IMG/VR virus record: IMGVR_UViG_2734482782_000001
Span: 1-28,372 of that record
DNA from: a virus
Taxonomy: Duplodnaviria > Heunggongvirae > Uroviricota > Caudoviricetes
DNA length: 28,372 bases
Direction: 5' to 3' (one strand)
Of the stretch, positions 2,500 to 23,118 are shown one piece after another; the stretch's first letter is position 1, and each line of letters opens with the position of its first letter. The position numbers and the translations under genes were made by a program. The notes below the pieces were generated by a model. It was not told the origin of the DNA. It made no database searches and was given only the letters and a program-made list of their open reading frames with translations.

Positions 2500-3153
2500 T
2501 TAGCCTCCCAGAGGTTTTGTATTGCTGCCGCCGCTTTCCACACCGCCATGCGTATGCTTATCAACGATTGAGCCATCCACCAGCTGCAGGCGGCCGTCAG
2601 ACAGAATTTTCAGGCCGTTCAGGTTGAACCCTCCCGGCGCGGTACCGGCTATAGCCCCACTTGAAGGATTAAGGCTCAGTTTGGTTCTGCCATCGTCGCT
2701 GCGCAGCTCAACCGCGCTGCCGCTGATGCCGCTGATTTTCTGCGCCTGCGACTGCGGTCCGACGATACAGAACGCATCCGATAAATCATGCACCCGGTCG
2801 TCGACAGGCTCCTGCACCCCGCCGTTCTGCCACCAGAAATCGATGCAGCGATCGGCGAAAATCACCAGGCATTCATCACCGGCTTTCACCGGGAACGTTA
2901 GCGTGCAGCCGCCGCCGCGTGGAAATATCACCGGCACATCCACCAGCAGCGGGTAATTTTTGGTAACGCGGTTGCCGTCGTTATCCGTTTCAACCGAACG
3001 AATAGCTGGCTGCACAACCGCCGTAACCGCGTCATGGTCGAATGACTGAACGATGCCAGGCAAAGCGACTCGGAGCTGGTTCTTTGTTGTGTCCCGCTCA
3101 GATTTGAATGTTTCGGCGAGGTCGCCGCTTCGGGTCTGGTCAGATACTGCCAT
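2500..3153 (-). CDS. Baseplate assembly protein V / central spike-like
   Basis: The track ORF 2500-3174 begins with TTG inside the terminator flank. The in-frame ATG at 3153 (MAVSDQTRSG...) is preceded by GGAGCC at good spacing, so I prefer that start. Size and position fit gpV-like. Confidence 0.6.
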   Translation of the reverse strand: MAVSDQTRSGDLAETFKSERDTTKNQLRVALPGIVQSFDHDAVTAVVQPAIRSVETDNDGNRVTKNYPLLVDVPVIFPRGGGCTLTFPVKAGDECLVIFADRCIDFWWQNGGVQEPVDDRVHDLSDAFCIVGPQSQAQKISGISGSAVELRSDDGRTKLSLNPSSGAIAGTAPGGFNLNGLKILSDGRLQLVDGSIVDKHTHGGVESGGSNTKPLGG

Positions 3154-3172
3154 TTGGTAGGCTCCAGAAAGC

Positions 3173-3198
3173 AAAAAACCCGCCGGGTGGCGGGTTTT
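3173..3198 (-). terminator. Rho-independent terminator closing the AT-rich cargo operon
   Basis: Plus strand reads AAAAAACCCGCCgggtGGCGGGTTTT: a GC stem CCCGCC/GGCGGG with a 4-nt loop. On the minus-strand transcript the stem is followed by a U6 run, directly after the stop of the 131-aa gene. Confidence 0.75.
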
Positions 3199-3217
3199 GC
3201 TAATTCACTGAATGAGT

Positions 3218-3613
3218 TTAAACAGCTTCGTCAGTCTTCATTTTTTCCCACTGAGAAAAAATAGTCTTAACCTCTAAGAGAGATTGCTGTGCCATTGCTT
3301 TATCAATTGCACAGCTAGTGAGGTCATAATCAGCTTCATTTCGAGCCAATCTCTGTTGCTCAAGTTTGTAAGCCATGGATTTTAGGCTTAATGGATCATA
3401 TGGCTCCAGTTTGTTTTCACTCTTATTTTTAAGATAAGAGATAAGGCTGGAATGATGATCCTTCGTATAAGCAGGAAGACTGGTCAGATTCTCTTTTATT
3501 TCATGGTAAAGCGCATAATATGCTCGCGAAATAGTATTACGATAACCAACCTCAGAATCTTCCGCAAAGCAACGCTCCGCAGAAGATAAAAATTCAGAGC
3601 TAGTTATAGGCAT
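3218..3613 (-). CDS. Hypothetical cargo protein, 131 aa, HEPN-like motifs
   Basis: ATG start with AAGGGTG RBS; overlaps the upstream 256-aa gene by 14 nt. About 35% GC by eye. Contains R30-x6-H37 (RAYYALYH) and R91-N-x3-Y96 (RNEADY), reminiscent of the HEPN Rx4-6H signature. Not confirmed by HMM. Confidence 0.7.
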   Translation of the reverse strand: MPITSSEFLSSAERCFAEDSEVGYRNTISRAYYALYHEIKENLTSLPAYTKDHHSSLISYLKNKSENKLEPYDPLSLKSMAYKLEQQRLARNEADYDLTSCAIDKAMAQQSLLEVKTIFSQWEKMKTDEAV

Positions 3614-4370
3614 ATTTACACCCTTTCAAGCTATTTCTTTCAACGGAAAAACGTGCAATAAGATTGCAATCATCCAGTAAATCGATTGAACAAATTTCAT
3701 CTGCAAGTCGCATATTCATTGCAACCACCTGCTCAGGGGATGCATTGACTACCTCAACCAGATAAGTCCCACCAGATGCACCGTTGATGTCAGCACGATA
3801 TTCAGTTGGCGGGAATTCAGCCATAACTCTATGAACAGCAAGAGCAACTTGCATGTATTGTTCTGAAGAGCAACCTGACTTTTTGTATGCTTCATCCATA
3901 TCGTGAATTACCTCCTGCAAGAAGGCTTCTGCGTCATCCCTATGTTCTTCTTGGGATAACATTTTGCAATGACGTCCAAAATATTCTACGCATTTTGATA
4001 GTTTCCCTACCAAATATGCAACGCCACCAGCCCTGTAAGTAAACCACTTGGTTGGATACTTATCAGCTAAAGAATAGATGTAGTAGTCCGATTTTTCGAG
4101 TAGAGAAAAACGCTCAAGCAGCTTACAAAAAATCCGCGCAAAGTTAACGTCAGCATGTGGGAGGATAGCTTCAAGCATTTCTATCCCGACACTCACCTCA
4201 CCTTTTGCAATATGAGCCAAAGCTACAAGCGTGTCAGCAGGCGGAGTATGCTTAGAGCCATATTCCGAAACCACCTCTCGAAAGGTCCAAATATCAAGAG
4301 GTTGACCACTATTGATTATCTTAACCAACTGGTCAAAACGCTCTTCCGCTTTCAGTTTTGGTCTTGCCAC
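3600..4370 (-). CDS. Hypothetical cargo protein, 256 aa, no recognisable motifs
   Basis: Long ORF in the AT-rich island. The first start codon after the in-frame upstream stop is GTG at 4370 with a weak SD, so the start is uncertain. No P-loop or nucleotidyltransferase motif seen. Confidence 0.65.
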   Translation of the reverse strand: MARPKLKAEERFDQLVKIINSGQPLDIWTFREVVSEYGSKHTPPADTLVALAHIAKGEVSVGIEMLEAILPHADVNFARIFCKLLERFSLLEKSDYYIYSLADKYPTKWFTYRAGGVAYLVGKLSKCVEYFGRHCKMLSQEEHRDDAEAFLQEVIHDMDEAYKKSGCSSEQYMQVALAVHRVMAEFPPTEYRADINGASGGTYLVEVVNASPEQVVAMNMRLADEICSIDLLDDCNLIARFSVERNSLKGCKYAYN

Positions 4371-4399
4371 AGTACGCTCGCTACTTATCTTTTGGTTGA

Positions 4400-4429
4400 A
4401 TTTTATGTTCGCGTATACAGTTTAGTCAA
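4400..4429 (-). promoter_or_regulatory. Candidate sigma70 promoter for the 256-aa/131-aa cargo operon
   Basis: On the minus strand: -35 TTGACT (4429-4424), 18-nt spacer, -10 TAAAAT (4405-4400), about 30 nt upstream of the GTG start at 4370. Confidence 0.45.
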
Positions 4430-4490
4430 TCCGAAGCTCATGCCGCTGAGCCGTTTCGCACAAAATCATCCATGCAAAAGGGATTGGACT

Positions 4491-4838
4491 TCAACCTGGC
4501 ACTTTCTTACACGGGAAAGAGCCGATGATTTTCGGCGCGTCCATGCTGTTCTGCAGCAGTTGGACGTTCAGGAAACGCGTTTCGGTACCAGGGCGATGGA
4601 TATACTCAAACCCATAGTTGTTGCCATCTTTAGCAGGCATTAGACCCATTTTGATCTGCATGCCTGTACCGTCTTTGCCCAACATTTTAACCTTTTGGGA
4701 TGTTACGGTTTCGCCATTGATTTTAAACAATGAGTCAGGGATCGCGTCCATACGAAAGTTACCACATTGCATCGTTATAGTGTTTGCACTTGCGCCAACA
4801 GACGCTAACGCCAGCAATGAAAAAATCCATCGTTTCAT
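4491..4838 (-). CDS. Small secreted protein with Sec signal peptide (cargo)
   Basis: The track ORF starts further upstream, but the internal ATG at 4838 gives MKRWIFSLLALASVGASA|NT..., a classic n/h/c signal peptide with an A-S-A cleavage site. GAGGGGG RBS sits 10 nt upstream; the start lies 2 nt after the hub stop. About 40-48% GC. Confidence 0.65.
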   Translation of the reverse strand: MKRWIFSLLALASVGASANTITMQCGNFRMDAIPDSLFKINGETVTSQKVKMLGKDGTGMQIKMGLMPAKDGNNYGFEYIHRPGTETRFLNVQLLQNSMDAPKIIGSFPCKKVPG

Positions 4839-4840
4839 TT

Positions 4841-5905
4841 CTATAACCCCCTCTGCAATGCAGTGCTCGATGGCATATCCTGCGCGCCACGCGCTTCGCA
4901 CATCATATCCATATACCACGCTTGGCCCCTTGTGTCGCCAGTGTACATAATCCCACGCACAATATAAACGCCATCCGTTGCGATGCTGGCAGGCTGCGCC
5001 GTGGTACCGCTGAGCGTGATATTGCCGTCTGTATTCTGGTCGGTGATGCGGCCCCCAGCCATCGCGATATCGTTGTTCGACAGTGCGGTGCGGAATACCG
5101 AAGCCTGATCCAGCTGAATGAGTCCGTTAACCCGGATGTTCGGGTTTATCAGCGCACGGACGTTCACGCCGTTGCCGATGGTCTGCTGCGGCATGCCGAT
5201 AAGCCCGGTGGCGCTGTTGAGCACAATCGCGTCGTGAACATACTCGTTATTCGCCACCATCTGGCGCTGGCCGTCCACGAACTGCCATGTTGCGCCACAT
5301 TGCCCGGCCACGTTATCCATAAGATGCCGTGTCATGCCGAACAGCACCCTGCCCCGGGGAAAAACGGTAGCAGGCATTTCAGGCGTCAGGCCTTCGGTCG
5401 CGCCTTTGGCCTCGAAGTCTTTCATCAGCGCGCGGTTCACGTCTGCGACCGTATAACCGGCCGCCAGCGTCTGCGAGGTTATGCTGGTGGCAAAGGCCAG
5501 ATCTGTATCGGCTGCCTGAATCAGGACGTAGGAATCAATGGGGCTGTCTTTTCCTGTGACCGAGTAACGAATTTCGCCGCTAAAAATCAGACCGTAGTTC
5601 CGGCCATCACTCTGGCCCACGTCCGCCGCGTCAACCTCCCGCACGGTCCCGACGTCGCTTGCCGATACCTCCGGCGCGATACCGTCGTAACCGGCAATTA
5701 GCCGCACCTTAGAAAACTCCTGCCCGGTGATGCGGTTCACCGTATCTGCCGAGAGGTTGTAGATTTTGAACGTTCCCACCCGGGACGCGCTGCTGATGTT
5801 GAACCAGTCGATCGTAAAGGTCACTTTAAAATCGCTGAGCTCAATACCCTGCCCGTTCTCGTCCACGAGCTGCAGCTCGAAATGTCTCATCCAGTTCTGC
5901 GACAT
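4841..5905 (-). CDS. Baseplate hub / tail protein (P2 gpD / Mu gp44-like position)
   Basis: 354-aa ORF, ATG start, high GC, placed after the tape measure and small tail proteins. Confidence 0.55.
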   Translation of the reverse strand: MSQNWMRHFELQLVDENGQGIELSDFKVTFTIDWFNISSASRVGTFKIYNLSADTVNRITGQEFSKVRLIAGYDGIAPEVSASDVGTVREVDAADVGQSDGRNYGLIFSGEIRYSVTGKDSPIDSYVLIQAADTDLAFATSITSQTLAAGYTVADVNRALMKDFEAKGATEGLTPEMPATVFPRGRVLFGMTRHLMDNVAGQCGATWQFVDGQRQMVANNEYVHDAIVLNSATGLIGMPQQTIGNGVNVRALINPNIRVNGLIQLDQASVFRTALSNNDIAMAGGRITDQNTDGNITLSGTTAQPASIATDGVYIVRGIMYTGDTRGQAWYMDMMCEARGAQDMPSSTALQRGL

Positions 5906-6210: not shown

Positions 6211-6797
6211 TAGCCGAGCCCCAGTAATGACGCCGCGTTACCCGTGATGCTTTTCAGCAGCGAGGTATTTGGCGGCTTTGTGGTTTTGGTGCCGGTATTC
6301 AGTACCGCCGACGTGCTGGCCCCGTCCTTCATGTTGGTTTTATCCGCGACGGTGATCTGCTGCGTCTGCGAGATAAGAACCTCCCTCAGGGTGAGGACGG
6401 CGGACAGGACGTTTTCGGTTGTCTTGTCTGTCGTCACTTCCATCGCGCGGATCAGCATGTTGCTGTACAGCCGTTTGCCGGTCACCACATCGAAAGGGAT
6501 ACGGCTCGCCTGCAGGTCGAGTATCTCCTGATACGTCTGCTGGGGGCTCAGACCGAGCAGACTGGTGGCCGTCAGGTTACTGGCAAAATCCAGCAACGAT
6601 CCGCCACCAGCGAAACCGACCTCCATCACCACTTCAGACGGTTTTTTGTAGGCATGGTCAGCGATAGCGGCCCCGACCTCGACAGGGTGCTCTGTTATCT
6701 CCAGCGTGTCGGTATGCTTCTCAGAAACAACCACACTGGGGACAATCATCCCTATTTTCCGGCTCTGCTGCTGAAAGAGCGTAGAGAGAATATCCAT
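6210..6797 (-). CDS. Tail protein downstream of the tape measure
   Basis: 195-aa ORF, ATG start, TAATG coupling with the TMP stop. Confidence 0.5.
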   Translation of the reverse strand: MDILSTLFQQQSRKIGMIVPSVVVSEKHTDTLEITEHPVEVGAAIADHAYKKPSEVVMEVGFAGGGSLLDFASNLTATSLLGLSPQQTYQEILDLQASRIPFDVVTGKRLYSNMLIRAMEVTTDKTTENVLSAVLTLREVLISQTQQITVADKTNMKDGASTSAVLNTGTKTTKPPNTSLLKSITGNAASLLGLG

Positions 6798-8806
6798 TAG
6801 CCCACCTTCGTTTGATTACCGCGCATGACCTGGGCGTTTGCCGACTGCTGCCGACGCTCGACCTCGGTACCGACAGAACGCGGGTCACCACCACCGTAGA
6901 TGTGATAGGTGTTTTGTTGCTGTACCTGCGCTCCCTTCCCGGGCATGTTACTCAACACCTTAGGAATGTAGTTGCGGGTTTCCTGCGGCATCAGGGCCAT
7001 TCCGTGCTTCTGCACGTTCCCGATCCCCCAGTTGTATGAGGCCAGCGCCTTGCTCAGGTCACCACCGTTAGCTTTCAGCAGCTGTGAGAGATATTTAGCA
7101 GCGGCCTGCGCGGCCTTTTCAGGATTGAATACGTCGTTCCCGCGCAGTCCCATATCACGCGCGGTACCGTCCATAAACTGAAACAGCCCTTTAGCGCCAG
7201 CGCCTGAAACAGCGAACTGATTTCCGCCCGATTCCGTTATGGCCACGCTGCGCAATAACCCCTCCGGAAGCCGATAGAGCTGCTCCAGGTTGGTTAGCAT
7301 GGGCTGCATCCATCCCAGCAGCTCAGAGCCCGCTTTGGTTGGCTGTGGCCGCTTGACTGACTGGCCGAGCTGTTCAGGCTCATCATCACCAAACCAGCCG
7401 CGCACCGTTCGGCCCACACTGCGAGGATCGAATCCCCAGTGCTCTTTAATCCAGTCGGCGGTACCGTTGGCGCTGTCTGTTACCATCGGCATCGCTGACG
7501 GATTTTCGCTGCCCTGATTGAGCATCTGTTTGCCGATGCTGGCGGCATCAGCCCAGCGGCCATCTTTAATGGCGTTGAGCAGGTCGGCGATCATATTCAG
7601 CATTTTGCTGAACTCGCCCATCTGGTCCCTGAAGTTGCTGAAATCCCACTTCAGGGACCATGATTTGGGGTCAATATTGAGCAGTTTCGCCAGCGCTTTC
7701 GCAAGGTCGTTAACGGTCGTTTTAAGGTCACGAACCATCTTCAGCGCGGCGTCGACTTCCGGTTTCCACTTGCCCCAGTCGATAAGGCTGTCGCCGCCCT
7801 CCTTCCAGGTCTGATAGTCCTCCCACAGAAGGGCAATCCCCGCCGCCAGCGCGGTAATAAGGCCAATCGGCGACATCCAGAACGTACTGTTCAGAATGCG
7901 TAGCGCAATCGTCAGCGCGCCAAACAGCGAGATCAGCTCCCGCGTTTGCTTGTCGAGTGATTGCCACCAGGTGATAAGGCTGGATGTTCCCTCAATAAGC
8001 CTGAAGAACAGCCGTCCGATGATGTCCCCGAGTGCCAGAATGCCTTTTATGGCTTTCGTCAGGGTCTGCTCGATACGCGGGAAGTTATCCAGGATATGAC
8101 GGCGCAGCGTGTCCAGCGAACCCGCCAGGCCACCAGCAAGATTAGAGCCGATTTTGTCACGGGCCATGCCTGCCATCGCGCCGAACTCGCGCAGGGAGGT
8201 CATGAATTTGTTGGAGCTTCTGGCCGCCTCGTCAGCATTGAAGCCGATAGCCTTCGCCATTGCGCTGTACTGCCCGGAGAAACCGCCAACACCCCGGCGC
8301 ATCGCCATGAGGGTATTTTCGTCAATGCCCAGCATCTGCGCATACTGGTTAGCCCGGTAGTACGGCATGCTGCTGAGCTTCTGGCCGACACCCGTAAAGA
8401 TAGCGGCCATATCGCGCATGTTACCGCTGGCGTCACGGGTCTGTACACCCAGGCGATTCAGGAAGCCTTCCGCACCCGGATTGTTACGAACAAACCGGGA
8501 GAGGCTTTCCAGAGAGGAGCGCGCCGCGTCTACGCTGCCGCCTACCTGCGAAACCGCATAGCCAATAGACTGAATCCCCTGAACCGTCGCGCCGGTGCGC
8601 TGTGACGCCCAGTAGAGATTATCCAGACCGGAGGCGATTTTAGCCGTAAAGGCCACCACAGTAAGCGCGGCACCTTCGACGGCCAGCCCCATTTTGATGG
8701 CGTTTGCGGTCGTACCTGCGAGAACTGAATCGAACTTTTCCGCGCCTGCTTCGTCGATATCGAAACCGAGCGAGACGAGAAAATCTTTAATAGTCTCAGC
8801 GTTCAT
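6797..8806 (-). CDS. Tail tape measure protein with C-terminal lytic transglycosylase (SLT)-like domain
   Basis: 669-aa ORF, ATG with GGAGAGAGG RBS. Alanine/glycine-rich helical N-terminal half, a hydrophobic segment (LISLFGALTIALRIL...GLITALAAGIALLW), and a C-terminal ...AITESGGNQFAVSGAGAKGLFQF...YNWG segment resembling SLT catalytic motifs. Lies downstream of the chaperone with frameshift. Confidence 0.75.
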   Translation of the reverse strand: MNAETIKDFLVSLGFDIDEAGAEKFDSVLAGTTANAIKMGLAVEGAALTVVAFTAKIASGLDNLYWASQRTGATVQGIQSIGYAVSQVGGSVDAARSSLESLSRFVRNNPGAEGFLNRLGVQTRDASGNMRDMAAIFTGVGQKLSSMPYYRANQYAQMLGIDENTLMAMRRGVGGFSGQYSAMAKAIGFNADEAARSSNKFMTSLREFGAMAGMARDKIGSNLAGGLAGSLDTLRRHILDNFPRIEQTLTKAIKGILALGDIIGRLFFRLIEGTSSLITWWQSLDKQTRELISLFGALTIALRILNSTFWMSPIGLITALAAGIALLWEDYQTWKEGGDSLIDWGKWKPEVDAALKMVRDLKTTVNDLAKALAKLLNIDPKSWSLKWDFSNFRDQMGEFSKMLNMIADLLNAIKDGRWADAASIGKQMLNQGSENPSAMPMVTDSANGTADWIKEHWGFDPRSVGRTVRGWFGDDEPEQLGQSVKRPQPTKAGSELLGWMQPMLTNLEQLYRLPEGLLRSVAITESGGNQFAVSGAGAKGLFQFMDGTARDMGLRGNDVFNPEKAAQAAAKYLSQLLKANGGDLSKALASYNWGIGNVQKHGMALMPQETRNYIPKVLSNMPGKGAQVQQQNTYHIYGGGDPRSVGTEVERRQQSANAQVMRGNQTKVG

Positions 8807-20974: not shown

Positions 20975-21066
20975 CTTTTTTTCGGGAAAACTGCGATTTG
21001 ATGCCCGGAGGCCGCGCAGAATGGGGAGATAGTGGATCGCCCTAATATTTCCACTATGTGGATAAC

Positions 21067-22071
21067 TCAGTCTAAATCCATCTCCACCACTTCACCGAAC
21101 AGGTGACCGTAAACGTCCATTGTGGTTTTGATGTTCGAATGCCCAATAAGTCGGGAAACCTTCAGAATATCGACGCCTTTGTTTGCCAGGCGAGATACAG
21201 CAAAGTGGCGAAGATGATGGAATCGTTTAATGCCATAGTCGTTCAGGGTTCTGACGAGAACGCCCTGAGTGCCGTAGCTGGTAGCAAGGCATGCGCCGGT
21301 AAACTGGTTGCAGATAAGAGGCTCAGAGGTACCGAGTTTACTTTTATCCAGCAACGCGAAAAGCTCACGCGGCATCCGTACCCGGCGCTCCACTCCTCTT
21401 TTCAGCCCCTCATGTATAACGCCGTCAACAACATGCCCCCGGATGTCGATCCAGTCGGCTGACACGTCGTTATAAGTAACAGCCAGAGCCTCACCGATGC
21501 GCAGGCCACAAATCCCGAGCCAGCACGCGATTCGCTCACGAACTGGCGCGTTATTCAGTAGCTCCCTGACCGATGATGATGGCGGTATGGTGATGGGTCG
21601 ACGCTTCCGGCGCGCGGGACGGTCAACAGGGTTAAAAGTGATGAGCCGTTTTTCCACCAGCAGGAAGAAAGCCGAACGAATCCAGCGATGGCAGCCGGTG
21701 CGAACCGAATCAACGATATCGCGATGGCTGATATGGAGAATATTTTTTTCCAGTATCGGCCCGTCTACAGCGAGAAGATCGTGACGGCATTTCGTATATG
21801 ACGACAGCCGTATGATATTTTTTTCCAGCTTGCCGGCCTGATACCCCAGATAAAACAGAATTAACTTTCGGAAAGTCCAGGAATGGTCTATTCCGGTCCA
21901 GCTGGCAGTTCGACAATCCAGCTCGATATTCTGTTTTTGCCAGAAAAGATGTGCGGCATCATCAATATTCTTAAAAATGCGGCGGCGTCCATGACCGGAT
22001 TTTTCATCCTTCCAGTGGACGTAATATTTTGATTGTCCATTGGCATCAGTGGATTCTTTTATCGAAGCCAT
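21067..22071 (-). CDS. int: Tyrosine-type site-specific recombinase / integrase
   Basis: The track starts at TTG 22080; the ATG at 22071 has a GAGGA RBS 9 nt upstream. C-terminal HLRHFAVSRL and GHSNIKTTMDVYGHL match the H-x-x-R and catalytic Tyr pattern of the tyrosine recombinase family. Confidence 0.8.
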   Translation of the reverse strand: MASIKESTDANGQSKYYVHWKDEKSGHGRRRIFKNIDDAAHLFWQKQNIELDCRTASWTGIDHSWTFRKLILFYLGYQAGKLEKNIIRLSSYTKCRHDLLAVDGPILEKNILHISHRDIVDSVRTGCHRWIRSAFFLLVEKRLITFNPVDRPARRKRRPITIPPSSSVRELLNNAPVRERIACWLGICGLRIGEALAVTYNDVSADWIDIRGHVVDGVIHEGLKRGVERRVRMPRELFALLDKSKLGTSEPLICNQFTGACLATSYGTQGVLVRTLNDYGIKRFHHLRHFAVSRLANKGVDILKVSRLIGHSNIKTTMDVYGHLFGEVVEMDLD

Positions 22072-22250
22072 GCTGAACAATCCTCACTCAAAAAACATTA
22101 TCAAAGCCACTCGCCGAATGGATTTGATAATGCTAATAAAAATGTCTCGGAAGCTATCCTTCTGTGCTCCCAATCAAGCTTTGCCGTTGCACCCTCATCA
22201 TATGAAAAAGTTCATGATACATTATGCTTTTATCAACTGAGGTGATCGCG

Positions 22251-22502
22251 ATGTCTGAACTCGAAAGTAGAGTTAATGAACTTGAAACAGAAAATGAAGA
22301 ATTGAAGTTAGAAATTCAAGCTTTGCGAATTGCAGTGGTAACTATCTCTTCTGTCGTAAACGAGGCTGTCGGCAAAACGGCTGGCTTAATGGGTAACACC
22401 ATTGAGGAAAGTTTGATTTTTGATGAAGACTTAGACCAAGATGAAGAGCGCTTCAACAAAATGAAATCAAAATTAGTTCACCTTTTAGGCAAAAAAGAGT
22501 AG
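22251..22502 (+). CDS. Small acidic coiled-coil protein, function unknown
   Basis: Only convincing plus-strand gene. ATG at 22251 with GAGGTGA RBS (the track's upstream ATG at 22224 has no SD). 83 aa, glutamate-rich heptad pattern (ELESRVNELETENEELKLEIQALR). AT-rich; convergent with the lysis operon. Confidence 0.6.
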   Translation: MSELESRVNELETENEELKLEIQALRIAVVTISSVVNEAVGKTAGLMGNTIEESLIFDEDLDQDEERFNKMKSKLVHLLGKKE

Positions 22503-22533
22503 TAACCACCTTTCCCTCTTGTTTTTAATAAAA

Positions 22534-22558
22534 TCGTCGCCAGCAGTGACTGGCGGCG
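22534..22558 (-). terminator. Terminator-like hairpin between convergent Rz and the plus-strand small gene
   Basis: 9-bp stem CGTCGCCAG/CTGGCGGCG with one mismatch; on the minus transcript it is followed by AUUUUAUUAAAAA. Confidence 0.45.
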
Positions 22559-22572
22559 AAATTGACTTATGT

Positions 22573-23118
22573 TTATTTCCTTTCATCCTCTATTTGACGT
22601 ATTCCAGCCAGCTGATTATTCGCTTTTTCGATGGCGGCCAGTAGCGGCTTGATCCAAAGAACAGCCTGGCAATACGTCAGCGAGCTGGTGGAAGCGGCAC
22701 TATCACCGGCTGCGTCAGCGCTCCCGGAATCGGTGTGCATTGCGCTGGCACGTAGACGGTGCGTGTATTCGAGCAGCCCACCAGCGACATCAGCAGGAAC
22801 AGGCAGATCACAGGTTTTTTCACGGCGGAGAATCTCCCGGTACTCCATAACAGTTTTATCGGAGCTGGCATCAATCAATGAGTTAAGTCGGCTGGCGTTT
22901 TCGGCCACCTGGTTAAACCGGTTGAAGTTGAAAGCCTGAGCAGCGATAACCGTCCCCTGCAGGTTGTTGTCACTGCGCAGAACGTCATTATCACTCTTCA
23001 GCGTAGCAACGTCAGAGCGGCTGTTTGCAAGCAGGACACACAGCCCGGCGACTACCGCAATGACGGCAACCAGCAGTATCAGACGCCATGAGGCTTTGAT
23101 ATCTGTAAAGGTGATCAT
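22573..23118 (-). CDS. Rz-like inner-membrane spanin (i-spanin)
   Basis: 181-aa ORF, ATG overlapping the endolysin stop (ATGA). N-terminal TM helix WRLILLVAVIAVVAGLCVLLA followed by a periplasmic helical domain. Last gene of the lysis cassette. Confidence 0.7.
   Translation of the reverse strand: MITFTDIKASWRLILLVAVIAVVAGLCVLLANSRSDVATLKSDNDVLRSDNNLQGTVIAAQAFNFNRFNQVAENASRLNSLIDASSDKTVMEYREILRREKTCDLPVPADVAGGLLEYTHRLRASAMHTDSGSADAAGDSAASTSSLTYCQAVLWIKPLLAAIEKANNQLAGIRQIEDERK
22677..22871 (-). CDS. Rz1-like outer-membrane lipoprotein spanin (o-spanin), embedded in Rz in another frame
   Basis: ORF entirely inside Rz. Lipobox L-V-G-C preceded by a hydrophobic stretch (KKPVICLFLLMSLVGC); proline-rich mature part (PAQCTPIPGALTQPVIVPLPPAR). 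Start codon uncertain. Confidence 0.55.
   Translation of the reverse strand: MPAPIKLLWSTGRFSAVKKPVICLFLLMSLVGCSNTRTVYVPAQCTPIPGALTQPVIVPLPPAR

What the first reader, a model, noticed from the sequence alone, without database searches (positions are those of the whole stretch)
3600..4370. 256-aa orphan protein as the partner or effector of the cargo operon
It is the first gene after the predicted promoter and is translationally linked to the HEPN-like gene by a 14-nt overlap. I found no P-loop, no nucleotidyltransferase GS...DxD motif and no transmembrane segment. A protein of this size with no recognisable motif, paired with a HEPN-like protein, could be a new sensor or effector. The GTG start with a weak SD should be verified.
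Basis: inference. Interest (0 to 1): 0.65.

Follow-up and report, generated by a model that had tools for sequence, protein, structure and literature searches.

The report
TPR partner of a prophage HEPN toxin
The 256-residue protein is a real, conserved, non-enzymatic repeat (TPR) protein that almost always travels with a small HEPN ribonuclease-type protein as a two-gene cassette in prophages of enteric bacteria. It is most likely the antitoxin or sensor half of an uncharacterised toxin-antitoxin or anti-phage module.

Summary
ORF 3600-4370 (- strand, GTG start, 256 aa) overlaps the 131-aa ORF 3218-3613 by 14 nt. A sigma-70-like site lies upstream and a strong hairpin terminator downstream, inside a low-GC island between the baseplate hub and spike genes of a SEN34-like prophage.

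The protein is not an orphan. It belongs to PHROG 17809 and to a family of 62 clusters, nearly all 250-260 aa, sampled from Enterobacterales and Aeromonas. A confident model shows an N-terminal TPR array, a helical hairpin and a small alpha/beta domain with no specific structural relative. No residue is invariant across 51 relatives, so it is probably a binding protein and not an enzyme.

The partner is a HEPN-T (AF0298-type) HEPN protein with RNEADY in place of Rx4-6H and invariant His54 and His37. The pair is syntenic in 16 of 17 contexts examined. Both genes are under strong purifying selection (dN/dS about 0.07) and their divergence is correlated (r = 0.78).

Best reading: a toxin-antitoxin-like, probably abortive-infection, module in which the TPR protein takes the place of the usual MNT antitoxin. 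This is inferred, not shown. Verdict: a new variant of a known kind, of moderate interest.

The parts
4400..4429 (-). Sigma-70-like promoter of the cassette (TTGACT, 18-nt spacer, TAAAAT)
   Evidence: 10 of 12 matches. Identical hexamers are present in L016, whose gene is 85% identical in DNA. A comparable TTGATA...TATTAAAT is present in L022 and L018. Consensus match only; the transcription start has not been mapped.
3600..4370 (-). Gene for the 256-aa TPR-containing partner protein (GTG start at 4370-4368, stop at 3602-3600)
   Evidence: PHROG 17809, E 4e-50; 62 representatives; AF2 pLDDT 89; start codon homologous to ATG starts in relatives; dN/dS 0.075.
3960..4292 (-). N-terminal TPR array, residues about 27-137 (paired helices)
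3816..3941 (-). Helical hairpin, residues 144-185, linking the TPR array to the C-terminal domain
   Evidence: pLDDT above 90.
3642..3800 (-). C-terminal small alpha/beta domain (strand-strand-helix-strand, residues 191-243). It carries the best-conserved family motif: M218 N219 xx L222 A223, then A239 x F241.
3600..3613 (-). 14-nt overlap between the two genes (ATG of the HEPN gene lies inside the end of the 256-aa gene), suggesting translational coupling
   Evidence: Abutting or overlapping gene ends recur in relatives.
3218..3613 (-). Gene for the 131-aa HEPN-T (AF0298/UPF0332-type) protein, the predicted RNase toxin. Motif R91-NEA-D95-Y96; invariant H37 and H54.
   Evidence: PHROG 5176. 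Family profile against PDB: 9xbd 1e-10 and 2hsb 5e-7. Pfam PF05168 in 4 of 14 relatives. Invariant E21 R25 R30 Y32 Y33 H37 P47 H54 L84 R91 D95 Y96. dN/dS 0.062.
3175..3198 (-). Intrinsic-terminator-like hairpin (10 perfect pairs, 6 G-C, then a T-run) that closes the cassette just upstream of the spike gene
   Evidence: inverted repeat I2. The sub-threshold Rfam leader hits here only reflect this hairpin.

Best explanation
The 256-aa protein is the non-catalytic partner of a two-gene HEPN cassette. It is made of a TPR array, a helical hairpin and a small alpha/beta domain.

The cassette is a self-contained prophage 'moron'. It has its own promoter-like site, two translationally coupled genes, its own terminator, and a GC content of about 0.40 against 0.57 in the flanking phage genes. 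It sits in a variable slot between the baseplate hub and spike genes.

The downstream 131-aa protein is a HEPN-T ribonuclease-type toxin of the AF0298/AbiV kind. In this kind the His of Rx4-6H is replaced (here RNEADY) and an alternative conserved His (H54, with H37 and R91) is thought to complete the active site.

Proposed mechanism (inferred):
1. In the lysogen, the TPR protein binds and holds the HEPN dimer inactive. It occupies the upstream 'antitoxin' position that an MNT nucleotidyltransferase normally holds, but it has no transferase chemistry.
2. On infection by another phage, either a phage protein or peptide engages the TPR groove, or host shut-off depletes the partner.
3. The released HEPN RNase cuts rRNA, tRNA or mRNA and aborts the infection. 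As a by-product, the module also stabilises the prophage.

Shown here: gene structure, fold, family, synteny, purifying selection and correlated divergence. Inferred: physical binding, toxicity, the direction of regulation, the trigger and the RNA target.
For: Anatomy: (GC 0.425 and 0.384 for the two genes; GC3 0.36 and 0.32, against 0.72 and 0.64 for hub and spike).

Fold of the 256-aa protein: TPR array plus small alpha/beta domain, pLDDT 89.

Non-enzymatic character: no invariant column in 51 relatives. The best-conserved polar residue is N219, at 84%. No P-loop or NTase motif.

Partner is HEPN-T. Anantharaman et al. 2013 (PMC3710099) describe exactly this variant, with D in place of H and an alternative His, for AF0298-like HEPN-T and AbiV. 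AbiV has since been reported to be an rRNA-degrading RNase toxin (review PMC13064643).

Obligate pairing: 16 of 17 contexts, large gene first, ends abutting or overlapping. Mirror-tree r = 0.78. The large protein evolves faster than the HEPN (mean identity 22% against 34%), as antitoxins and sensors usually do.

Mobile, defence-like locations: the same hub/spike slot in other phages (L022, L023); next to integrases at prophage ends (L019, L024, L035-L038); before the tape-measure gene of a siphovirus (L001); next to a lysozyme gene (L034). In other E. coli prophages the same slot carries a YafO toxin cassette and other cargo.

Precedent: HEPN genes in operons with TPR or Sel1 proteins (LA2681, AbiU2) were noted in PMC3710099.
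Against: There is no experimental or modelled evidence of a complex, of HEPN toxicity, or of anti-phage activity.

The HEPN lacks the canonical Rx4-6H histidine, so catalysis rests on an untested alternative site.

The putative antitoxin has no DNA-binding domain, and no operator-like palindrome lies near the promoter. This is unlike classical type II systems.

The first gene has a GTG start and a weak Shine-Dalgarno sequence, which is odd for an antitoxin that is expected to be in excess.

Neither protein hits a named defence system in PADLOC-DB v2 (only HEPN_IX at E 0.009). Neither is among the validated DefensePredictor systems held as text.

Both proteins are acidic (pI about 5.4), so there is no charge complementarity of the usual toxin-antitoxin kind.
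Confidence: 0.55

Rival explanations
1. Derived HEPN-MNT system. The C-terminal alpha/beta domain would be a catalytically dead remnant of a minimal nucleotidyltransferase (MNT) fused to a TPR array. The pair would then be a type VII HEPN-MNT module that has switched from AMPylation to neutralisation by binding. This concerns origin and mechanism, and it is compatible with the main explanation.
For: The partner belongs to the nucleotidyltransferase-associated HEPN-T clade, whose usual upstream neighbour is an MNT (PMC3710099).

Two family profiles give a weak sequence hit to RsfS, a non-catalytic NTase-fold protein (E 0.06-0.08).

Against: Foldseek returns nothing below E 3e-3 and no NTase.

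The helix between strands 1 and 2 of the NTase core is missing; the model has a beta-hairpin there.

There is no G[SG]...DxD/E motif and no conserved acidic residues. No Pfam NTase hit appears in any of 51 relatives.
Confidence: 0.2
2. Activator or sensor model. The HEPN protein would be inactive on its own, and the TPR protein would be a pattern-recognition subunit that switches it on after binding a phage protein. This resembles a STAND/Avs sensor without the NTPase, and the TPR protein would not be an antitoxin.

For: The TPR protein lacks a DNA-binding domain and has weak translation signals (GTG start), which is unlike a typical antitoxin.

It evolves faster than the effector.
Against: The gene order, with the large gene first and translational coupling to the HEPN gene, is the classical antitoxin-toxin layout (PMC3710099).

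Stand-alone HEPN-T and AbiV proteins are toxic unless neutralised.

Nothing here distinguishes activation from release.
Confidence: 0.2
3. Addiction module only. The pair would be a toxin-antitoxin cassette that merely stabilises the prophage or itself and has no role in defence against other phages.
For: The same slot carries a YafO-family toxin cassette in other prophages. The cassette is mobile and patchily distributed: 7 of 307 slot-bearing E. coli genomes carry most of this version and 3 more carry an 85%-identical one.
Against: The cassette lies at the places where prophages keep superinfection-exclusion and defence cargo (int-proximal ends, tail-module morons). The HEPN type is shared with the Abi protein AbiV. 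These are contextual arguments only.
Confidence: 0.15
4. Virion or assembly function. The 256-aa protein would be a tail or baseplate assembly factor or chaperone, because it sits between the hub and spike genes.
For: Its position inside the tail module. TPR proteins can act as chaperones.
Against: The slot is empty or holds unrelated cargo in closely related prophages. The same pair occurs outside tail modules, next to integrases and in a cryptic prophage. It has a foreign GC content, its own promoter-like site and its own terminator. It always comes with a HEPN gene. The only tail-family hits are E > 0.1.
Confidence: 0.03

Closest known systems
HEPN-MNT (HepT/MntA) type VII toxin-antitoxin systems
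   Same: Both are two-gene operons with the neutralising partner upstream and a small HEPN toxin downstream, with overlapping genes. The HEPN here belongs to the nucleotidyltransferase-associated HEPN-T clade (PF05168, AF0298-like).
   Different: The upstream protein is 256 aa with an N-terminal TPR array. It has no G[SG]...DxD/E nucleotidyltransferase motif and no conserved acidic residues, so AMPylation of the toxin is excluded. Any MNT ancestry of its C-terminal domain is only weakly suggested.
AbiV (Lactococcus abortive-infection HEPN RNase; type III toxin-antitoxin)
   Same: Both are HEPN proteins that lack the canonical His and have an alternative conserved His N-terminal to the motif (PMC3710099). 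AbiV is reported to be an rRNA-degrading RNase that aborts phage infection (PMC13064643).
   Different: There is no sequence hit to the PADLOC AbiV model. AbiV is about 200 aa and is neutralised by an RNA. Here the partner is a protein, and no RNA element was found.
[quoted passage not shown] 2013)
   Same: A HEPN domain is genetically coupled to a TPR or Sel1-type repeat protein.
   Different: Those HEPN families keep the canonical Rx4-6H motif, whereas this one has RNEADY. As far as I could find, none of these pairs has been characterised experimentally.
Prophage morons and defence hotspots (for example the P2/P4 hotspots of Rousset et al. 2022)
   Same: A variable slot flanked by conserved phage genes holds interchangeable small cassettes with their own expression signals.
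   Different: The phage lineage is different (SEN34-like myovirus) and so is the slot (between the baseplate hub and spike genes). This cassette is not among the systems tested in that paper.

Membership tests
TPR repeat proteins (Pfam clan CL0020) - the 256-aa protein | Tandem helix-turn-helix repeats of about 34 residues forming a right-handed superhelix | tested here: met
TPR repeat proteins (Pfam clan CL0020) - the 256-aa protein | Sequence match to a Pfam TPR model at the curated threshold | tested here: inconclusive
   The window protein itself hits no Pfam family. Among 51 relatives, 15 hit TPR_2 (best E 6e-6), 11 hit TPR_14 and 10 hit TPR_1.
MNT / MntA minimal nucleotidyltransferase antitoxins - the 256-aa protein | hG[GS] x9-13 Dh[DE]h catalytic motif | tested here: not met
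   A regular-expression search finds none. No acidic residue is conserved in the 51-member alignment.
MNT / MntA minimal nucleotidyltransferase antitoxins - the 256-aa protein | Pol-beta-type nucleotidyltransferase fold | tested here: inconclusive
MNT / MntA minimal nucleotidyltransferase antitoxins - the 256-aa protein | Encoded immediately upstream of a HEPN gene | tested here: met
   16 of 17 contexts.
HEPN-T (PF05168, AF0298/UPF0332-like) - the 131-aa partner | Sequence homology to HEPN-T proteins of known structure | tested here: met
   Profile A3 against PDB: 9xbd 1.1e-10, 9xbc 7e-10, 2hsb (AF0298) 4.9e-7. PF05168 is hit in 4 of 14 relatives, best E 2e-6. The window protein alone is only marginal (2hsb E 0.31; PADLOC HEPN_IX E 0.009).
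HEPN-T (PF05168, AF0298/UPF0332-like) - the 131-aa partner | Canonical Rx4-6H at the end of helix 3 | tested here: not met
   The motif is R91-N-E-A-D95-Y96. This is the D-for-H variant that PMC3710099 describes for this clade. The alternative invariant His residues H54 and H37 are present.
HEPN-T (PF05168, AF0298/UPF0332-like) - the 131-aa partner | Ribonuclease activity and toxicity | not testable with these tools
   Needs expression and in vitro cleavage assays.
Type II-like toxin-antitoxin module | Bicistronic operon, antitoxin first, overlapping genes, small toxin | tested here: met
Type II-like toxin-antitoxin module | Antitoxin with a DNA-binding domain and an operator for autoregulation | tested here: not met
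   No HTH, RHH or AbrB domain in the model or in Pfam. No palindrome lies near the promoter.
Type II-like toxin-antitoxin module | Direct toxin-antitoxin complex that neutralises the toxin | not testable with these tools
Only correlated divergence is available (r = 0.78).
Named anti-phage defence systems (PADLOC-DB v2.0) | Hit to a system-specific protein model | tested here: not met
   The 256-aa protein has 0 hits. The 131-aa protein has only the generic HEPN_IX model at E 0.009. Later databases were not available.
Phage moron | Insert between conserved phage genes, with its own promoter and terminator, deviant composition and variable presence | tested here: met
   Promoter activity itself has not been measured.
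   Only tape-measure PHROGs at E 0.13-0.18. Nothing in Pfam or NCBIfam.

The most novel reading that the evidence does not exclude
The pair would be a minimal, NTPase-free immune receptor. A four-repeat TPR protein with a previously unseen (or pseudo-MNT) C-terminal domain would directly recognise a phage protein. It would thereby gate a HEPN-T RNase that uses the non-canonical His/Arg active site. This would be a new, widespread prophage-borne defence family in E. coli (including strains CFT073 and E2348/69), Salmonella, Klebsiella, Yersinia and Proteus. It would show how the abundant HEPN-MNT scaffold was rewired from enzymatic to sensor-based control.
Probability: 0.25. Interest if true: 0.65.

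Novelty: new variant of a known kind. Interest (0 to 1): 0.48.

Why it matters
HEPN toxins are among the commonest conflict-system effectors. Their known controllers are MNT nucleotidyltransferases, RNAs (AbiV, AbiF) or dedicated antitoxins (RnlB). A TPR protein in the MNT position would be a different control logic, most likely protein-protein sensing.

The AF0298-type 'alternative histidine' HEPN has hardly been studied in bacteria.

The cassette is carried by prophages of well-studied pathogens: a near-identical pair in EPEC E2348/69 and a 271+127-aa variant in UPEC CFT073. Toxicity, phage-challenge and escape-mutant experiments are therefore straightforward.

The work also flags the baseplate hub/spike junction of SEN34-like prophages as a cargo hotspot worth mining.

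Tried and rejected
- Direct family searches with the 256-aa protein gave nothing usable: Pfam only a sub-threshold MazE-like hit (E 0.24, 11.8 bits against a cutoff of 22), NCBIfam nothing, PADLOC nothing, PDB by sequence only malyl-CoA lyase at E 0.69.
- The search for related loci with the wide alignment A2 failed because no stretch was conserved enough. With A1 it returned mostly near-identical loci.
- Profile of the C-terminal domain against PDB sequences gave only helical or low-complexity hits and RsfS at E 0.08.
- I checked whether the pair is one of the newly validated E. coli systems of the DefensePredictor paper. Accessions and sequence motifs are absent from the held supplements. 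DS-28 (a HEPN protein plus a 252-aa protein) is unrelated in sequence and has the opposite gene order.
- The NetFlax toxin-antitoxin network paper and the P2/P4 hotspot paper do not describe this pair.
- An RNA antitoxin or riboswitch is rejected: Rfam gives only sub-threshold hits on the terminator hairpin.
- An operator palindrome at the promoter was not found.
- A tail-assembly role is rejected on context (see the rival explanations).

Full report
**1. What is in the sequence.**

The window is the tail and baseplate module of a SEN34-like (Brunovirus-type) myovirus prophage, with all genes on the - strand. The flanking genes are:
- a tape-measure-like protein (6797-8806);
- a baseplate hub (4841-5905; PHROG 196, E 1e-88);
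- a spike protein (2500-3174; PF18352 plus the Apex motif);
- Baseplate_J-type wedge genes.

Between hub and spike lies a low-GC island, with GC about 0.43 against 0.55-0.58 in the flanks. The two cargo genes have GC3 of 0.36 and 0.32, against 0.72 and 0.64 for hub and spike.

The ORF in the finding is exactly as described: 3600-4370, - strand, GTG start, 256 aa. It overlaps the 131-aa ORF (3218-3613) by 14 nt. A TTGACT-18-TAAAAT site lies at 4429-4400 and a hairpin of 10 perfect pairs plus a T-run lies at 3198-3175. Together they bracket the two genes as a self-contained unit. The promoter call is only a consensus match, and the scan as a whole is not enriched over shuffles. The hexamers are, however, kept in a copy whose gene is only 85% identical in DNA.

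**2. Is it a real, translated gene, and is the GTG right?**

Yes to both.
- Against an 85%-identical copy, the 256-aa gene has dN/dS 0.075 and the 131-aa gene 0.062.
- Relatives down to about 17% identity keep the same length (about 250-260 aa) and the same N-terminal pattern, MxxPxxKxxE.
- The homologous first codon is ATG in five distant relatives. It is GTG or TTG in the closer ones.
- The Shine-Dalgarno sequence is indeed weak (GAGCG, read).

**3. It is not an orphan.**

The protein matches PHROG 17809 end to end (E 4e-50) and the partner matches PHROG 5176 (E 6e-36). A word-indexed search found 11 clusters. An exhaustive profile search found 62 representatives at 50% identity among 1.84 billion proteins, most of them full-length at about 255 aa. 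Named members come from E. coli, Salmonella, Klebsiella, Citrobacter, Kosakonia, Yersinia, Proteus, Pectobacterium, Rosenbergiella and Aeromonas. All are annotated 'hypothetical' or, automatically, 'tetratricopeptide repeat protein'. EPEC E2348/69 carries a near-identical pair in the same slot.

**4. Fold.**

AlphaFold2 with the family alignment gives a confident model (pLDDT 89, pTM 0.85) with three parts:
- paired helices from residue 27 to 137;
- two long helices (144-185);
- a strand-strand-helix-strand domain (191-243).

Across 51 relatives no column is invariant. The only well-conserved polar residue is N219, at 84%. There is no P-loop, no NTase motif and no transmembrane segment. This is the profile of a binding or scaffold protein and not of an enzyme.

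**5. The partner.**

The 131-aa protein alone gives only marginal HEPN signals. A 14-member alignment is much clearer. It hits two HEPN structures (9xbd 1e-10, 9xbc 7e-10) and AF0298/2hsb (5e-7), and PF05168 is hit in 4 of 14 members.

Invariant residues are E21, R25, R30, Y32, Y33, H37, P47, H54, L84, R91, D95 and Y96. The canonical Rx4-6H position reads R91-NEA-D95-Y96.

Anantharaman et al. 2013 describe exactly this for the nucleotidyltransferase-associated HEPN-T clade typified by AF0298, and for AbiV. D replaces H, and a second conserved His from the insert between helices 2 and 3 could rebuild the active site. Here H54 fits that description. AbiV has since been reported to be an rRNA-degrading RNase toxin, so this HEPN variant can be catalytically active.

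**6. The two genes are one unit.**

I examined 17 contexts. Sixteen have a large TPR-type gene followed at once by a 125-142-aa HEPN gene with the [SAG]RxYY and RxxxDY signatures, abutting or overlapping it. They are the window, L001, L006, L007, L018, L019, L022, L023, L024, L026, L027, L031, L033, L034 and the widespread E. coli variant L035-L038; L003 and L004 are near-identical copies. The one exception, L032, is a divergent member on a short contig.

Pairwise identities in the two families are correlated (r = 0.78; 0 of 5000 permutations reach it). The large protein diverges faster than the HEPN (mean identity 22% against 34%).

Contexts are all phage or prophage:
- the same hub/spike slot;
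- integrase-proximal prophage ends;
- upstream of a siphovirus tape-measure gene;
- next to a lysozyme gene;
- a cryptic prophage.

In 307 E. coli genomes that share the slot flanks, only 7 carry most of this cassette, and 3 more carry an 85%-identical version. Others hold a YafO-family toxin pair, a distantly homologous 243+142-aa pair, a DUF2335 gene or single small ORFs. The slot is a cargo hotspot.

**7. Most likely mechanism.**

The layout is that of a toxin-antitoxin or abortive-infection module: binding protein first, small nuclease second, translationally coupled, in a mobile cassette expressed from its own promoter in a prophage. The TPR protein sits where an MNT antitoxin normally sits but cannot AMPylate.

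I therefore propose that it neutralises the HEPN dimer by binding. I also propose that its TPR groove, or its turnover, couples release of the RNase to infection by another phage.

None of binding, toxicity, trigger or RNA target is shown here. Three features fit a classical antitoxin poorly: the weak GTG/SD start, the lack of a DNA-binding domain, and the lack of an operator. These keep an activator-type sensor model alive.

**8. Comparison with known systems, and novelty.**

The pair works like HEPN-MNT (type VII) or AbiV-type HEPN systems, but it fails the defining MNT motif test and does not hit the PADLOC AbiV model. HEPN-plus-TPR or HEPN-plus-Sel1 operons (LA2681, AbiU2) were predicted in 2013 for other HEPN families with canonical motifs.

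The pair has no named-system match in PADLOC v2 and is not among the DefensePredictor-validated systems. It is not described in the NetFlax paper or the P2/P4 hotspot paper.

I class it as a new variant of a known kind: a HEPN toxin module with a new, TPR-based partner. Interest is moderate. It is not a surprising architecture, but it is an uncharacterised and easily testable system present in model pathogens.

Noticed in passing
window 4494-4838 (- strand): A 114-aa protein with a clear signal peptide (MKRWIFSLLALASVGASA/NT), PHROG 3443 (E 6.5e-51, unknown function). It sits directly after the hub gene and is kept in every variant of the slot (L003-L006, L028-L030), unlike the cargo next to it. 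It could be a periplasmic exclusion factor or a tail accessory protein.
   Followed up: partly
window 3175-3198: A perfect 10-bp GC-rich hairpin with A/T runs on both sides lies inside the tail operon, just upstream of the spike gene. Late phage transcription must read through it. All sub-threshold Rfam 'leader' hits in this region are caused by this hairpin.
   Followed up: partly
window about 3175-4490, with L005, L006, L028, L029 and L030: The hub/spike junction of SEN34-like prophages is a cargo hotspot. 307 E. coli genomes share the flanks but carry different inserts: a YafO-family toxin plus a 190-aa protein, a distant 243+142-aa homologue of this same pair, a DUF2335 protein, or single small ORFs.
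   Followed up: partly
window about 21000-23000: A second low-GC island (GC about 0.45). It holds a 337-aa ORF that looks like a tyrosine recombinase (21067-22080, - strand; judged by eye, no family search was run) and a 92-aa coiled-coil ORF (22224-22502, + strand). It lies between an HTH-containing 200-aa gene and lysis genes (Rz-like, lysozyme-like).
   Followed up: no
L001 5986-7147 (Klebsiella phage ST405-OXA48phi1.3, MK416008.1): The GenBank record starts the TPR-gene homologue too late (at an internal ATG). It also splits the intact 131-aa HEPN ORF (6752-7147) into two short CDS. The pair is intact there and lies upstream of the tape-measure gene of a siphovirus.
   Followed up: yes
L035-L038 6001-7189 (E. 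coli, including the CFT073 lineage): A 271+127-aa variant of the pair is very common in E. coli (seen on hundreds of contigs). It sits at the integrase end of a lambdoid prophage, inserted beside the csiD/gab locus in L037 and L038.
   Followed up: partly
PDB 9xbd / 9xbc (hits of the partner profile): Two recent structures of a 125-131-aa 'HEPN domain-containing protein' differ only by Tyr to Phe in the RNRSDY motif. This suggests that someone is testing the Tyr equivalent to Y96 of the partner. I found no paper on them in the library.
   Followed up: partly
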